Shown here: positions 5,309-64,000 of the stretch, piece after piece
Layout: each line of letters begins with the position of its first letter
Numbering within the stretch: position 1 is the first letter of the stretch
Virus record (IMG/VR): IMGVR_UViG_2910903598_000004
Coordinates: 1-64,000 of that record
DNA: 64,000 nucleotides
Reading direction: 5' to 3' (one strand)
Source of the DNA: a virus
Lineage: Duplodnaviria; Caudoviricetes
Translations under genes and position numbers: made by a program
Notes under the pieces: generated by a model
Database searches by the model: none
What the model saw: only the letters and a program-made list of their open reading frames with translations
What the model was told of the DNA's origin: nothing

Positions 5309-7516
5309 CTACTGTGCTTTCTGCGTCAGTAGATTTAACAAATTGGTATTTCTTGCTTCTGAAAAATCATCATTTACAGCCATAAAAAAAGCAGCCAGGG
5401 AACCAATGAAAATAACTTTTTCTTTTGCTCTGGTTACTGCTGTATATAATAATCTTCTGGTTAACATTCTGTGATAAGATTTCATCAATGGAATGATCAC
5501 AATCGGATATTCCTGCCCTTGGGACTTATGAATACTAACACCATATGCTAACGTCAGTGTCGCAAAATTTTCTTTTTTATACTTAACTGTCTTTTCATCA
5601 AATTGAATCGTAATAGTAAAATCTTTGGGATCAATCTTAATGATTTTTCCAATATCGCCATTCACGATTCCATTTATATTGCTGTTTGAAGTTTCTAATA
5701 CTTTGTCTCCCATATAAAACCTTTTTCCATATGTTTCAACATATTCTTTAGAATCTGGTGTTGCATAAGGATTGATCAAGTCTCGGATGACTGGATTTAA
5801 ATATTCCGTTGATGTTAGGGCTACTTTTCCACTCCTGCTAAATTTTTTACGCAGCGGTGATAAGAGCTGTACGTCAGAATATTCTCGATTCTCATAATTC
5901 ATCTCATAAATTTGAGGTATTTTTTTAGAGATTTCTTCTTCAATCATTTTATCATTTCCTTCGATACGAATTAGCTGAAAATCTCTCTCATTCCATATCA
6001 TCTTTGGGTTTCCTTCATTGATCAGTTTTGCATTGATTGGAATCATAGAATTCTGACCTTGTCGGAAAATATGATCCAGAATTGTTGTAGGGATTACTTT
6101 GCTATCGATCATATCCGTAAACACCTGTCCAGGTTCAATGGATTGCAGCTGATCTTTATCTCCTACGAAAATCAAAGTCGCATCAGGTCTTACCTGCGTG
6201 AAGATATCTCTAAATAACTTGCATCCGATCATCGAAGATTCATCTACAATAACAACATCTTCATTGACCATACGATTTGCAACAAATTCATCGTCTAAGA
6301 AATATCCTAGTTTGCTATGAATCGTACCACCATTTTCATAGTGTGTCGCAGAGATCATTCGTTTTGTAGCACATCCTGTTGGTGCCATTAACAGTACCGA
6401 TTTCCCACGTTTAAGAAAACACTTGATCATAATGTCTATGGTTAATGTTTTTCCTGTTCCTGGTCCTCCGGTTAGAATAGATAAGTTATAAATCTGAGAT
6501 TTGATAACTGCTTCTTGCTGCTGCGAAGCTAACAGGATTTTTTCTTCTCTTGCCAGATCATTGATCTCTTCAATCATCTTGGCTCTTTCATCCTCAGATA
6601 AGATTTTTTCTCCTAATCTTTCTCGAATCATCTTATTAAGTAGCATTTCTGCATCATAATATTCTTGTAAAAAGAATTTTCCATCTTCATAAACGATAGA
6701 TTCATCGACCAACTGACTTTTAAAATAATCCAATGCAAACATGATTGTTGCTTTTGGGACACTTTTATGCATTACATAATAAGTTTCATTAATCAGATCA
6801 TTTTCATAAATAAAAGTATGTCCTTTATTTTTACATAATCTTGTAATCGCGGAATAAATCCCGCACCGGATTCTGATCGTATCATTTTTCTCTTCTTCGG
6901 ATGGCTCGTGATTCATTTCTATATCTGCTAATGAAATTCCAGCTTTGTATAGATTATAAATATTTGCATCTAGCATTTCTGTAGCATCTTCTCCGAATGC
7001 TTTAAGAACTTTTCTGGCCTGACCTTTTTTTAGGTCATAAGTACCCATCAAATAACATAATCTTTCTTTTCTTTCCTCAGCTTTGATAAAGTTTCGCACA
7101 GCCATAAGTTTTATTCTTGGAATCGTTTCATGTTTAGGAGGTTCTTTTAAAACGTGAAAAGTATCCGTTCCAAAGGCATCCACAATAGCTTTTGCTGTCT
7201 TTTTCCCGATTCCAGGAACTTCATCTGCCAAAACTTCCTGAATGGCTTCTTTGGTTTCTGGAAGCAAGACTTTAAATCTTTCCGCATGAAACTGCAGGGA
7301 TTTTCTTTTTTTATAGATATTTTCTTTCCATTCTCCATAAAAAATAATCTCTCGGTTCTTTTGTCTTGGAAGATCTCTTCCTAAAACCGTGAATATATCC
7401 TGTTTCCAAAGTGCCAATTTTGGTACCTCAGATATCGCATGATATCTTGCGATGGAATATGTACCATCATCTAATTCATTGATTTTCTTGTAAAAACTAC
7501 AATGTACTTCTTGCAT
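5309..7516 (-). CDS. recD2: RecD2-like SF1 helicase
   Basis: HhH GIGKKTA, GGPGTGKT, VDESSM, VGDKDQL, HKSQGQE, LYTAVTRAK. Confidence 0.93.
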   Translation of the reverse strand: MQEVHCSFYKKINELDDGTYSIARYHAISEVPKLALWKQDIFTVLGRDLPRQKNREIIFYGEWKENIYKKRKSLQFHAERFKVLLPETKEAIQEVLADEVPGIGKKTAKAIVDAFGTDTFHVLKEPPKHETIPRIKLMAVRNFIKAEERKERLCYLMGTYDLKKGQARKVLKAFGEDATEMLDANIYNLYKAGISLADIEMNHEPSEEEKNDTIRIRCGIYSAITRLCKNKGHTFIYENDLINETYYVMHKSVPKATIMFALDYFKSQLVDESIVYEDGKFFLQEYYDAEMLLNKMIRERLGEKILSEDERAKMIEEINDLAREEKILLASQQQEAVIKSQIYNLSILTGGPGTGKTLTIDIMIKCFLKRGKSVLLMAPTGCATKRMISATHYENGGTIHSKLGYFLDDEFVANRMVNEDVVIVDESSMIGCKLFRDIFTQVRPDATLIFVGDKDQLQSIEPGQVFTDMIDSKVIPTTILDHIFRQGQNSMIPINAKLINEGNPKMIWNERDFQLIRIEGNDKMIEEEISKKIPQIYEMNYENREYSDVQLLSPLRKKFSRSGKVALTSTEYLNPVIRDLINPYATPDSKEYVETYGKRFYMGDKVLETSNSNINGIVNGDIGKIIKIDPKDFTITIQFDEKTVKYKKENFATLTLAYGVSIHKSQGQEYPIVIIPLMKSYHRMLTRRLLYTAVTRAKEKVIFIGSLAAFFMAVNDDFSEARNTNLLNLLTQKAQ

Positions 7517-7532
7517 AATTTTTTCGTTACAT

Positions 7533-8621
7533 CTAAATATACTTATGATTGTAACGTTCTCCTTTCTTTAAATTTTCCTTTTTCAGAGAAAATCTTGGAG
7601 ACTGTTTTTGTACAGTGCAAAATTTTTGATAAATATCCGGATACATTTCTGCCAATCTTTGCGAAGATTCTACATTAAATGTAACCTTGGGTTCTTTTTG
7701 TTCATAATTCAATATGATTTTTTCATCATCATGAACAATAACTCCTCGATCATAACGGGTATCATCTGCTCCCTTTAAGGAATTAATGAAATATGCTTTA
7801 ATCCGATCTAAAGACTGATCTATTTTGCTCAGTTCTTGTTTTTTTACCTCTTTTTCCTCCATTAGCATGTCATATTGTTCTAACAGACTTTTAAATGGAT
7901 CATAAGGTAATTCAATCGTTCCATCTACATATTTCTTTTCCTCTAATGCTTTAATAAGCAGGTTTGGATCTTTATCCTCAAACATACCCGGTTCTTCGTT
8001 GTTTTGAACATGCTGCCAAAATTCTTCCAGTTCTTCGATCATGATCTTTTCATATTTTATATCTCTTGTAACCTTTCGAATAATGACATCGTTCCGCGTG
8101 TTACCGTAGATGGCGATCACATATGCAACATCGATATCCATAACACACATATAATGCCTGACTTGGGCTTCATATTGGTATGGTAGTTTAGGATTTTCTT
8201 TCGTTCCATAATACTTTTTAGTAAAAGCATTAATTACCTTACATTCTAAAATAGCCATGCTGCCATCCGGCATCATGACTAATCCATCAAGATCAGCCAG
8301 CATAAATGGGTGGTCCGGATGCTGATACATGTATGGTAATTCGATAACTCTTAAGCCTGTTTTGAAAGAAAACATTCTCCGTGCATAAGGTTCCAATAAT
8401 TGACCACATAATAATGTTTCCCAATTTTTTGGCTCCCTTTGAAAGCTGGACGTTTTTTCCCAAAACAACTCCAATGTCGATTTAAATTTGCCCTTTCCTC
8501 TTGCTGCTGCACTATCGCTGCCTCCAATTCCTTCTTTTCTCCACTTTAGCCACTGATCCTTATTTTCTAAGGCATTTGCTTTTCGTAGATCATGGATTGG
8601 AATTGGTTTGTGTCCATCCAT
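7533..8621 (-). CDS. YqaJ-like phage exonuclease
   Basis: WLKWRKEGIGGSD, ADLDG, LECK, YEAQVRHYM. Confidence 0.9.
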   Translation of the reverse strand: MDGHKPIPIHDLRKANALENKDQWLKWRKEGIGGSDSAAARGKGKFKSTLELFWEKTSSFQREPKNWETLLCGQLLEPYARRMFSFKTGLRVIELPYMYQHPDHPFMLADLDGLVMMPDGSMAILECKVINAFTKKYYGTKENPKLPYQYEAQVRHYMCVMDIDVAYVIAIYGNTRNDVIIRKVTRDIKYEKIMIEELEEFWQHVQNNEEPGMFEDKDPNLLIKALEEKKYVDGTIELPYDPFKSLLEQYDMLMEEKEVKKQELSKIDQSLDRIKAYFINSLKGADDTRYDRGVIVHDDEKIILNYEQKEPKVTFNVESSQRLAEMYPDIYQKFCTVQKQSPRFSLKKENLKKGERYNHKYI

Positions 8622-8646
8622 AATATTATTTCCTCCTTTCTGGATA

Positions 8647-63667: not shown

Positions 63668-63681
63668 AATTTTTTCTCCTT

Positions 63682-63948
63682 TTAAAATTCTTGAGATGGT
63701 TTAGTCTGATATGGATTTGCTGCTTTTGCTCTTTCCTTTATAATTTTAGAAAGAGTCGTATCATCAATATTTCCATACTGACTTATATCTCTTGCGATCA
63801 TTAAGTCACTCTTAATTTCGTGATATAAATTGTCTCCATCGTACTTGTCTCTAGCATAATATAATACATTGCAAAGTTTGACTAATTCATCAGAACTTAG
63901 AGTAACTGTTACTTCTCTGTCATTTTTTGATATATTTTGAATATTCAT
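63682..63948 (-). CDS. Hypothetical protein
   Basis: 88-aa ORF. Confidence 0.6.
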   Translation of the reverse strand: MNIQNISKNDREVTVTLSSDELVKLCNVLYYARDKYDGDNLYHEIKSDLMIARDISQYGNIDDTTLSKIIKERAKAANPYQTKPSQEF

Positions 63949-64000
63949 TGTAAATAAGCAAAAATCCCCAAACCTCTAAGGTCGGGGATAAATTTGCTCT
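63949..64000 (-). mobile_element. IscB-type right end (element continues beyond the window)
   Basis: AGCAAATTTATCCCC..GGGGATTTTTGCTTATTTA, similar to 15205-15257. Confidence 0.6.

What the first reader, a model, noticed from the sequence alone, without database searches (positions are those of the whole stretch)
7514..63990. Recurrent split RBS: SD - hairpin - ~10 nt - AUG
Seen: AAGGAG is followed within 0-4 nt by a hairpin, then an 8-11 nt AU-rich spacer and the AUG. Examples: recD2 (7516; cgttaca/tgtaacg), 10046 (ggcagatct/agatctgcc), S1 gene 11008 (agcaggattc/gaattctgct), ThiF 13629 (aactgtccg/cggacagtt), Ubl-JAB 15201 (two hairpins), 31349 (17-bp stem), XRE 47483 (two hairpins), NMNAT 51327, and probably 41186 and 63948. 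The stems have unrelated sequences. In those checked, the non-Watson-Crick positions are G-U on the mRNA strand, so selection appears to act on RNA. Established: looping out an SD-AUG spacer is known for isolated phage T4 genes. Inference: systematic use on one element suggests a translational control layer.
Basis: partly seen in the sequence, partly recalled or inferred. Interest (0 to 1): 0.78.

Follow-up and report, generated by a model that had tools for sequence, protein, structure and literature searches.

The report
Hairpin-bridged ribosome sites, half from transposon ends
About ten genes of this large gut phage have their ribosome-binding sequence separated from the start codon by folded RNA hairpins; half of these hairpin units are leftover ends of an IscB-type jumping gene that lands exactly in front of ATGAA start codons, so the pattern is real but is mostly an insertion scar that translation has to live with, not a dedicated control system.

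Summary
The pattern is real and well above chance. Nine genes, plus a weaker tenth at 41186 and an unlisted one at 20668, have a strong SD, then a stable hairpin or hairpin pair within 0-3 nt, then an 8-13 nt tail and the ATG. None has a proximal SD except 31349 (GGTGAT). My detector scores 9 of 136 ORFs here, against 0 of about 215 in 13 distant Lachnospiraceae elements.

The sites fall into two classes.

Class A (15201, 47483, 51327, 63948, 41186) is not made of unrelated stems. These are decayed left ends of IscB-encoding IS605-family elements. The "SD" is iscB's last codons and the hairpins are transposon-end hairpins. The element inserts exactly 5' of ATGAA, the reverse complement of the published IscB TAM, TTCAT. 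Close and distant relatives have plain RBSs at JAB and NMNAT.

Class B (7516, 10046, 11008, 13629, 31349) consists of single-copy hairpins specific to this phage clade. SD, tail and geometry are conserved while the stems are remade, and stem variants are wobbles in the mRNA sense.

The most likely mechanism is a T4 gene 25/38-type split RBS kept by compensatory selection. A designed control layer is not supported.

First-stage notes on this genome recorded the same pattern, unchecked. No earlier finding on other DNA was looked for.

The parts
7514..7564 (-). RecD2 split RBS: SD AAGGAG 7559-7564, hairpin 7525-7556 (7-bp outer stem plus inner pairs), tail 7517-7524, ATG 7514-7516. The SD and 5' arm lie in the last codons of the upstream YqaJ gene, whose stop is in the loop.
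   Evidence: (z -3.1). In L027 the 5' arm carries synonymous or near-synonymous codons of the same KGERY(N/K)H C-terminus, and the non-coding 3' arm is changed to match it, in a new register.
10044..10091 (-). 174-aa gene split RBS: SD 10086-10091, 9-bp hairpin 10057-10083, 10-nt tail, ATG 10044-10046.
   Evidence: z -5.2. L307 has the same stem with a new loop. L027 has a related, longer stem.
11006..11051 (-). S1-domain gene split RBS: SD 11046-11051, 10-bp hairpin 11019-11044 (one G-U), 10-nt tail, ATG 11006-11008.
   Evidence: z -5.1. L027 has a wholly different stem with the same SD, lead, tail and ATG. L307 shows one compensatory A-U to G-C change, one wobble and one mismatch. Sister genomes show C>U giving U-G.
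13627..13673 (-). ThiF/E1 gene split RBS: SD 13668-13673, 12-bp hairpin 13640-13666, 10-nt tail, ATG 13627-13629. This is the only one of these hairpins that also matches a terminator pattern.
   Evidence: (z -6.5). Variants: an A>G wobble in L025 and L027, and a different 46-nt hairpin in L114 between an identical SD and tail. Of 14 distant orthologs found, 12 have a canonical SD 8-11 nt upstream; two (L028, L035) showed none.
15199..15417 (-). JAB gene: a 216-nt gene-less IscB-IS remnant (15202-15417), made of a truncated HEARO/omega RNA part plus the left end. The left end holds SD-like AAGGAGG 15272-15278, hp1 15256-15271, hp2 15213-15255, an 11-nt tail and ATG 15199-15201. The old native SD (AAAGGAAA) lies just upstream of 15417.
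   Evidence: The remnant is absent from the five 98%-identical sister loci and from L024, L025/L026, L027, L113 and L114.
31347..31411 (-). 316-aa gene: SD 31406-31411, 18-bp hairpin with 4 G-U pairs 31360-31402, tail holding GGTGAT, ATG 31347-31349.
   Evidence: z -5.2. The sister copy in L198 (99% aa identity) has a differently paired 3' arm and tail.
41184..41272 (-). Weaker case: AAGGAA 41267-41272, 66-nt composite hairpin 41200-41265, 13-nt tail with AAGG, ATG 41184-41186 (ATGAAAATC). It is the left-end remnant of a second IscB subfamily.
   Evidence: z -2.8. One search shows that the last codons and hairpin match the iscB 3' ends of L219 and L295.
47481..47548 (-). XRE/HTH gene: diverged class A cassette. 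AAGGAGG 47542-47548, hp1 47526-47541, hp2 47493-47525, 9-nt tail, ATG 47481-47483.
   Evidence: (z -5.9).
51325..51404 (-). NMNAT-like gene: class A cassette. AAGGAGG 51398-51404, hp1 51382-51397, hp2 51337-51381, 9-nt tail, ATG 51325-51327 (ATGAAACCT).
   Evidence: (z -4.8). About 35 relatives at 68-95% aa identity keep the same start, nearly all with an ordinary SD 4-10 nt upstream and none with a cassette.
63946..64000 (-). 88-aa gene: class A cassette. hp2 63957-63998, hp1 63999-64014 and AAGGAGG 64015-64021 (the last two run past the window end), 8-nt tail, ATG 63946-63948 (ATGAATATT).
20666..20720 (-).
   Evidence: (z -6.4). Identical in L024, L025, L026 and L114.

Best explanation
Two kinds of hairpin sit in SD-AUG spacers of a large Lachnospiraceae phage (an IMG/VR virus record; sister records are 200-222 kb).

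Class A (15201, 47483, 51327, 63948, 41186) is shown to be the decayed left end of IscB-encoding IS605-family insertion sequences. In the intact copy in a sister genome, the motif GAA AGG AGA CTC GCC TGA is the end of the iscB reading frame. Its stop codon sits in the loop of hairpin 1. Hairpin 2 and a roughly 10-nt tail complete the transposon end, and the element abuts ATGAA. That is the reverse complement of TTCAT, the TAM reported for Geobacillus IscB. Because 30% of genes here start with ATGAA, the element lands exactly between a gene's RBS and its start codon. Copies inside coding sequence would be lost.

Class B (7516, 10046, 11008, 13629, 31349) consists of single-copy hairpins of unknown origin that arose within this phage clade.

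The next steps are inferred. In both classes the gene has no usable SD near its AUG. Folding of the insert brings the strong upstream SD to 9-13 nt from the AUG, and the 30S subunit accommodates the hairpin, as shown experimentally for T4 genes 25 and 38. Once a gene depends on this, mutations that open the stem are selected against. That explains stems that are remade, wobble-only variants on the mRNA strand, and an invariant SD and tail. I read the recurrence as insertion history plus a compensatory ratchet, not as a purpose-built regulatory layer.
For: Architecture and statistics.

Starts are correct: NMNAT begins ATGAAACC in about 35 relatives; Pfam domains begin at residues 5-8; loop start codons are not conserved.

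Class A is an IS end:
- The 222-nt block upstream of the JAB ATG (216-nt element plus 6 flanking nt) matches three pieces flanking a 451-aa RRXRR+HNH protein in sister genome G003.
- HEARO scores 129.5 bits upstream of that iscB, and a truncated HEARO scores 31.4 bits inside the window's insert.
- Y1 TnpA and IscB genes are present in the sister genomes.
- Filled versus empty sites show exact insertion before ATGAA with no duplication.
- Published work places the IscB omega RNA next to the right end and the TAM TTCAT 5' of the left end (10.1101/2023.03.14.532601).
- 56 of 69 unique IscB loci in IMG/VR phage contigs have ATGAA at the iscB-distal end, against 4 on the other strand. In 33 of them it opens an ORF of at least 50 codons.

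Derived state: JAB and NMNAT have ordinary RBSs in relatives, as does ThiF in 12 of 14 distant relatives.

Selection on pairing and on the SD:
- Only the SD block and the tail+ATG block are conserved around a variable stem at S1, ThiF and RecD2.
- The non-coding 3' arm of the RecD2 hairpin tracks codon changes in the coding 5' arm.
- hp1 shows C-G to U-A changes between copies.
- Variants are wobbles in the mRNA sense.
- All remnants read GGAGG where the intact iscB reads GGAGA.

Precedent: T4 gene 38 (22 to 5 nt) and gene 25 (27 to 11 nt), PMC3014915.
Against: So use of the distal SD is inferred, not shown.

The looped-out spacing (9-13 nt, plus the width of a helix) lies at or beyond the long edge of normal spacing here (mean 8.3).

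The transposon-end hairpins have a DNA-level reason to exist. For class A, structure alone therefore says nothing about RNA function.

The SD-like motif follows from conserved LTE[RK]R codons of IscB and could be incidental.

The ThiF hairpin also fits a terminator pattern.

The RecD2 start lies 16 nt after the upstream stop, so coupling could contribute there.

The origin of class B is not explained. Wholesale stem replacement (ThiF in L114, S1 in L027) is not simple stepwise covariation.

The wobble-only evidence rests on a handful of events (about 5-8).
Confidence: 0.6

Rival explanations
1. This is a dedicated translational control layer. The hairpins would be switches: the SD works only when the stem is closed, and a phage factor (for example the S1-domain protein or a helicase), temperature, or upstream translation opens or closes them to time expression of a regulon.
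For: The sites cluster in the non-structural half of the genome. The architecture is conserved while the stems are replaced. The class A copies share hairpin 1, which could be a common protein-binding site. The phage encodes an S1-domain protein that itself has such a site. At RecD2 the upstream stop codon sits in the loop, so upstream translation must melt the stem.
Against: Class B stems and loops share no motif and are single-copy. The class A similarity is explained by common descent from a transposon end. The JAB cassette is absent from 98%-identical sister genomes, and the NMNAT cassette is absent from every relative outside the immediate lineage. An essential control layer would not be expected to vary like this. 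No regulator is linked to the sites.
Confidence: 0.15
2. The distal SD and the hairpins are irrelevant to translation. These genes would be translated without an SD, through A/U-rich tails, or by coupling or reinitiation. The hairpins would then be only DNA-level transposon ends (class A) or RNA-stability, processing or terminator elements (class B). The upstream SD-like motif could at most act as a 5' stabiliser of the STAB-SD type.
For: Transposon-end hairpins are needed by the TnpA machinery whatever happens in translation. The SD-like motif is encoded by conserved IscB C-terminal codons in several subfamilies. 30 of 69 IscB loci use a different arrangement, with the iscB stop overlapping ATGAA. 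The ThiF hairpin matches a terminator pattern. Roughly a third of the ORFs in this genome have no strong SD.
Against: In the intergenic class B sites the SD block is the only conserved upstream sequence across 64-77% aa divergence, and lead plus tail length is held constant. All remnants carry GGAGG against GGAGA in the intact gene. Wobble-only variants on the mRNA strand would be A-C mismatches on the strand used for transposition (together with the orientation). Only one of the hairpins looks like a terminator.
Confidence: 0.2
3. The start codons are mis-assigned. Under this reading, translation really begins upstream of or inside the hairpins (TTG 13653, TTG 10052, TTG 31361, ATG 47510, GTG 41249), so there is no long spacer.
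For: ORF finders and the gene calls on some relatives choose those starts.
Against: Those codons are not conserved. At ThiF, L025 has an in-frame TAG and no start codon in the loop, and in L027 the loop ATG is out of frame. They sit 14-30 nt from the SD, with one hairpin arm in between. NMNAT, ThiF and HTH domain positions and the NMNAT ortholog N-termini fit the downstream ATGs. Only 41186 stays ambiguous.
Confidence: 0.05

Closest known systems
Split ('accommodated') translation initiation regions of phage T4 genes 25 and 38 (Nivinskas 1999; Malys & Nivinskas 2009; reviewed in PMC3014915)
   Same: The SD lies too far from the AUG (22-27 nt in T4, 35-70 nt here). A stable hairpin fills the spacer and leaves 5-11 nt (T4) or 9-13 nt (here). 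The arrangement is present only in a narrow clade of related phages, and relatives have ordinary sites.
   Different: T4 has two isolated genes. Here at least nine genes in one genome are affected, some with two adjacent hairpins, in a Firmicute-type system. For half of them the inserted hairpins are identifiable transposon ends. No experiment exists here.
IS200/IS605-superfamily elements encoding IscB with HEARO/omega RNA, and their gene-less PATE derivatives (ISGst5 of Geobacillus, TAM TTCAT; bioRxiv 10.1101/2023.03.14.532601)
   Same: An RRXRR+HNH protein with HEARO upstream. Sub-terminal hairpins. Exact insertion next to TTCAT without duplication. Y1 TnpA supplied elsewhere in the genome. 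Presence/absence polymorphism. Internally deleted gene-less copies.
   Different: What I describe is the consequence for the neighbouring gene. The left end lies directly on an ATGAA start codon and carries an SD-like motif plus compact hairpins (or, in other subfamilies, a stop codon overlapping ATGA). I did not find this described in the papers searched.
E. coli thrS split ribosome binding site (Sacerdot et al., as summarised in PMC3936740)
   Same: The ribosome binds two single-stranded parts of the mRNA separated by a hairpin that it accommodates without unfolding.
   Different: In thrS the hairpin lies upstream of the SD and is an operator for the synthetase. Here the hairpin lies between the SD and the AUG, and no binding protein is known.
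STAB-SD / 5' stabiliser SD-like sequences of Bacillus mRNAs (cryIIIA, SP82) - from my own knowledge, not checked here
   Same: A strong SD-like sequence in a Firmicute leader lies far from the start codon.
   Different: STAB-SD mRNAs also have a normal RBS at the gene. These genes have none.

Membership tests
Split TIR of the T4 gene 25/38 type | A strong SD lies more than 15 nt from the AUG, with no usable proximal SD. | tested here: met
   Gaps are 37-70 nt. Tails hold no SD except GGTGAT at 31349 and AAGG at 41186.
Split TIR of the T4 gene 25/38 type | A stable structure fills the spacer and reduces the effective spacing to a functional distance. | tested here: met
   In the MFE structures the hairpins start 0-3 nt after the SD and leave an 8-11 nt tail. 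z-scores are -2.8 to -6.5. Effective spacing is 9-13 nt, against a normal mean of 8.3.
Split TIR of the T4 gene 25/38 type | The structure is maintained in related phages. | tested here: met
   S1, ThiF, RecD2 and the 174-aa gene keep a hairpin in L024, L025, L027, L114 and L307, with changed stems and an unchanged SD and tail. Strict column-wise covariation could not be counted because the helices are re-registered.
Split TIR of the T4 gene 25/38 type | Stem-disrupting mutations lower translation, and compensatory mutations restore it. | not testable with these tools
   This needs reporters or toeprinting.
IS605-family IscB element, left end (class A sites) | Homology to the end of an element that encodes IscB (RuvC/RRXRR + HNH) with a HEARO omega RNA upstream. 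| tested here: met
   sequence; Pfam RRXRR 1e-68, HNH 1e-7; HEARO 129.5 bits, gathering score 83; alignment of copies.
IS605-family IscB element, left end (class A sites) | Insertion next to a fixed short motif (TAM) without target duplication. | tested here: met
   Filled versus empty sites at JAB and at the second IscB copy. ATGAA follows the end at five window sites and in 56 of 69 IMG/VR loci. The published TAM is TTCAT.
IS605-family IscB element, left end (class A sites) | A Y1 (HUH) TnpA transposase is available. | tested here: inconclusive
   PF01797 genes occur in sister genomes G001-G003, but none occurs in this 120-kb record, which CheckV rates 89% complete. Activity on these ends was not tested.
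HEARO RNA (RF02033) in the window itself | Reaches Rfam's gathering score. | tested here: not met
   31.4 bits against 83 at 15287-15417. This is an internally deleted fragment, not a full omega RNA.
Intrinsic terminator | A G+C-rich stem followed by a U run. | tested here: not met
   In 7000-16000 only the ThiF hairpin is flagged. RecD2, the 174-aa gene, S1 and JAB are not.

The most novel reading that the evidence does not exclude
IscB-type IS605 elements whose TAM is TTCAT are in effect start-codon-seeking. They settle directly 5' of ATGAA start codons, in the sense of the gene. Their left ends have been shaped to keep that gene translated, either by a built-in SD plus compact hairpins that act as a portable split RBS, or by an iscB stop codon overlapping ATGA for coupling. 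This phage clade would then hold the largest natural set of hairpin-bridged ribosome binding sites, some of them domesticated transposon ends.
Probability: 0.3. Interest if true: 0.7.

Novelty: new variant of a known kind. Interest (0 to 1): 0.55.

Why it matters
If the distal SDs are used, this genome offers about ten natural, sequence-diverse test cases of hairpin-bridged initiation in a Firmicute-type system. So far essentially two T4 genes define the phenomenon.

It also shows a concrete route by which such sites arise. A TAM-guided transposon whose target is the reverse complement of a common start-codon context (ATGAA) splits an RBS. The remnant is then kept folded by selection.

For gene calling, these sites mislead automatic start prediction: several relatives were called at TTG or ATG codons inside the hairpins.

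For OMEGA and IS605 biology, the link between TTCAT and ATGAA, and the translation-sparing design of the left end, would explain the reported co-orientation of IscB elements with neighbouring genes.

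Tried and rejected
- Rfam at gathering threshold and a tRNA scan on the whole window found nothing.
- Megablast of 7-16 kb against GenBank phages gave no match. A distant search hit only an SSB gene.
- An exact class A pattern search in IMG/VR found only the sister genomes.
- Single-protein locus searches gave only near-identical relatives.
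- Class B as a repeated mobile element: rejected, because each hairpin is single-copy across all loci held.
- Initiation at start codons inside the loops, or small upstream ORFs: rejected, because they are not conserved.
- Upstream alternative starts: rejected, except that 41186 stays open.
- A shared in-frame stop in the loops in the GAA-AGG-AG frame was seen in 3 of 4 class B sites. I judged this to be chance in A/T-rich loops.
- Column-wise covariation counting on RecD2 was abandoned because the L027 helix is in another register.
- My first detector version picked wrong downstream ATGs and was replaced.
- Promoter scans are at shuffle level and were not used.

Full report
**Setting.** The window is the first 64 kb of a 119,963-bp single-contig IMG/VR virus record with about 32% G+C. 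Nearly all genes are on the minus strand. Near-identical IMG/VR records are 200-222 kb. Protein relatives come from human-gut metagenomes and from Anaerostipes and other Lachnospiraceae. Most genes have an ordinary AAGGAG 5-12 nt before ATG, with a mean of 8.3 nt from the end of GGAG.

Nine starts follow one layout: 7516, 10046, 11008, 13629, 15201, 31349, 47483, 51327 and 63948.
- An AAGGAG or AAGGAGG is followed within 0-3 nt by a hairpin or two abutting hairpins.
- An 8-11 nt A/U-rich tail then leads to the ATG.
- Folding energies are 2.8-6.5 SD below dinucleotide shuffles.
- Site 41186 fits more loosely.
- A further site at 20668 precedes only a 21-codon ORF.

The pattern is well above chance.
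- With deliberately loose criteria the background is 44 of 3510 other ATGs. That predicts about 0.6 hits among the 46 ORFs that lack a strong proximal SD, and nine are seen.
- The same script finds 3-4 sites per 20 kb in the close relatives L024, L025 and L027.
- It finds none in 13 loci (about 215 ORFs) of more distant Lachnospiraceae elements carrying the same E2-JAB-ThiF operon.
- It finds 2 in about 280 ORFs of other control loci.

**The starts are right.**
- The NMNAT-like gene begins ATGAAACC in about 35 relatives of 68-95% identity.
- The ThiF, HTH and nucleotidyltransferase domains begin at residues 5-8 of the proposed proteins.
- Start codons inside the hairpin loops, which some gene callers chose, are not conserved. 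At ThiF the loop has TTG in frame here. It has ATG out of frame in L027. In L025 there is an in-frame TAG and no start codon.

**Class A is a transposon end.** Sites 15201, 51327 and 63948, and more distantly 47483, share about 78 nt: AAGGAGG, a 6-bp hairpin 1, a composite hairpin 2 and a TTATTTA-type tail.

At JAB the cassette is the 3' part of a 216-nt insert (15202-15417). The insert is missing from five 98%-identical sister loci and from L024, L025/L026, L027, L113 and L114. All of these have a plain AAAGGAA-8/9 nt-ATG.

Searching the insert against sister genomes showed that in G003 its two halves flank a 451-aa protein with RRXRR (1e-68) and HNH domains, which is an IscB.
- A full HEARO omega RNA lies upstream of that gene (129.5 bits).
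- The window's insert keeps a truncated HEARO (31.4 bits, E 7e-5).
- In the intact element the 'SD' is iscB's last codons (…GAA AGG AGA CTC GCC TGA), and the stop is in the loop of hairpin 1.
- Hairpin 2 and TTATTTACG follow, and then comes the flank ATGAAAGGAG.
- Sister genomes also carry Y1 TnpA genes and two further IscB families.
- For one of those families the window holds the empty site.

Comparison of filled and empty sites puts the insertion exactly between the old spacer and ATGAA, without duplication. According to Meers et al. (10.1101/2023.03.14.532601), the omega RNA upstream of iscB is bounded by the transposon's right end, and the TAM of the Geobacillus IscB element is TTCAT, lying 5' of the left end. 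Read in the sense of iscB, that means the left end is followed by ATGAA, which is what is seen here. Gene-less derivatives (PATEs) are also described there.

The cassette at 41186 matches the iscB 3' end of another subfamily (L219, L295) and also abuts ATGAA.

Among 69 unique IscB loci from IMG/VR phage contigs:
- 56 have ATGAA at this end, against 4 on the other strand;
- in 33 it opens an ORF of at least 50 codons;
- in 30 the iscB stop codon is the TGA of ATGAA.

Several subfamilies carry GAAAGGAG(G) just before the end hairpin. It is encoded by a conserved LTE[RK]R C-terminus. About 30% of genes here start with ATGAA. Insertions inside genes would be lost. Together these explain why the surviving copies sit on start codons.

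**Class B.** The hairpins at 7516, 10046, 11008, 13629 and 31349 are single-copy, and I could not identify a source. They are also derived: 12 of the 14 distant ThiF orthologs found have an SD 8-11 nt from the start, and two showed none.

Within the clade the architecture is kept while the stems change.
- **S1:** L027 has an unrelated stem between the same SD block and the same tail. L307 shows one A-U to G-C compensation, one wobble and one mismatch.
- **ThiF:** there are wobble variants, and in L114 a different 46-nt hairpin lies between an identical SD and tail.
- **RecD2:** the SD and the 5' arm are the last codons of the upstream YqaJ gene. In L027 those codons differ synonymously or nearly so, and the non-coding 3' arm differs so as to pair with them, in a new register.
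- **Stem variants:** the natural variants I read are C>U or A>G changes that leave G-U pairs on the mRNA strand. No A-C 1x1 mismatch was seen in the folded set. For class A those changes would be mismatches on the strand the transposase uses.
- **SD in the remnants:** all remnants read GGAGG where the intact gene reads GGAGA.

**Mechanism.** It is shown that these genes have no proximal SD, that the insert folds compactly, and that the SD and tail are the conserved parts.

It is inferred that the 30S subunit uses the distal SD with the hairpin looped out, as demonstrated for T4 gene 38 (22 to 5 nt) and gene 25 (27 to 11 nt) (PMC3014915). For the two-hairpin cassettes the stems abut each other, the SD and the tail with no spacer. 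Coaxial stacking would therefore bring the SD and the tail together; this is my inference.

I read the maintenance of the stems as a ratchet. Once an insert has split an RBS, folding is what keeps the gene translated.

Nothing indicates a common regulator, and the cassettes come and go between near-identical genomes. The 'control layer' reading is therefore not supported, though single sites could still act as switches. Candidates are RecD2, where upstream translation must melt the stem, and ThiF, which also fits a terminator pattern.

**Limits.**
- No expression or ribosome data could be obtained.
- The spacing after loop-out is on the long side.
- The origin of class B and the wholesale stem replacements are unexplained.
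- The wobble argument rests on few events.

**Literature.** Searches of the held library found the T4 and thrS precedents. They found no description of multi-gene split RBSs or of IscB ends sitting on start codons. That library is incomplete.

Noticed in passing
window 26734-28362 (-), and about 26672-26760; G000 near 74317: A 542-aa TnpB (OrfB_IS605 + Cas12f-like TNB) sits in a patch of 39% G+C. An end-like sequence of about 60 nt (…CCCGTAACAGGGAATAGA…GGAAACGTGTATTTC) is repeated downstream of it and again near 74317 in the other half of the genome.
   Followed up: partly
window about 59331/59332 (upstream of the gene starting at 59299): This is an empty site for a second IscB element. Sister genome G001 has a 424-aa IscB with HEARO inserted between …CGTACTGAAA and TTAAAAAATCATAGG…. 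That family abuts TTAAA, not ATGAA.
   Followed up: partly
window 20455-20760 (-): The 290-nt leader of the PAPS-reductase-like gene (19174-20469) holds an SD-hairpin-ATG unit opening a 21-codon ORF. A second AAGGAG follows, and then two or more hairpins. The leader hairpin (20679-20712) is identical in relatives. This may be a leader-peptide or other cis-regulatory region.
   Followed up: no
window 11096-11229 (-) and many intergenic regions (e.g. 8667-8686, 23800, 25370, 30210, 33440, 34730, 53360): There is a strong promoter-like site (GTGACA-17-TGnTATAAT) followed by a leader with a terminator-like hairpin before the S1 gene. A recurring CAGAC…GTCTG-T-run terminator, framed by GGGTA/TACCC-like arms, sits directly against the next gene's SD.
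   Followed up: no
sister loci L108-L112, just upstream of the JAB ATG: The 98%-identical sister genomes read …GGAAATTAATTACG-ATG. The extra TACG equals the last four bases of the IS end. Their 'empty' site may therefore be a deletion footprint of the same insertion rather than a never-occupied site.
   Followed up: no
IMG/VR loci L237-L289 (IscB relatives): In 30 of 69 unique IscB loci the iscB reading frame runs through the transposon end and stops at the TGA of the flanking ATGAA. The next ORF's start therefore overlaps the iscB stop (ATGA), the classical arrangement for translational coupling.
   Followed up: partly
window 12859-16142 (-): This is a PRTRC-like operon: an E2-like gene, a 501-aa protein with a C-terminal JAB domain, and ThiF/E1. 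It is followed by an S1-domain protein, a sortase, a YqaJ exonuclease, RecD2 and an ERF-like gene. The same order is seen in relatives.
   Followed up: partly
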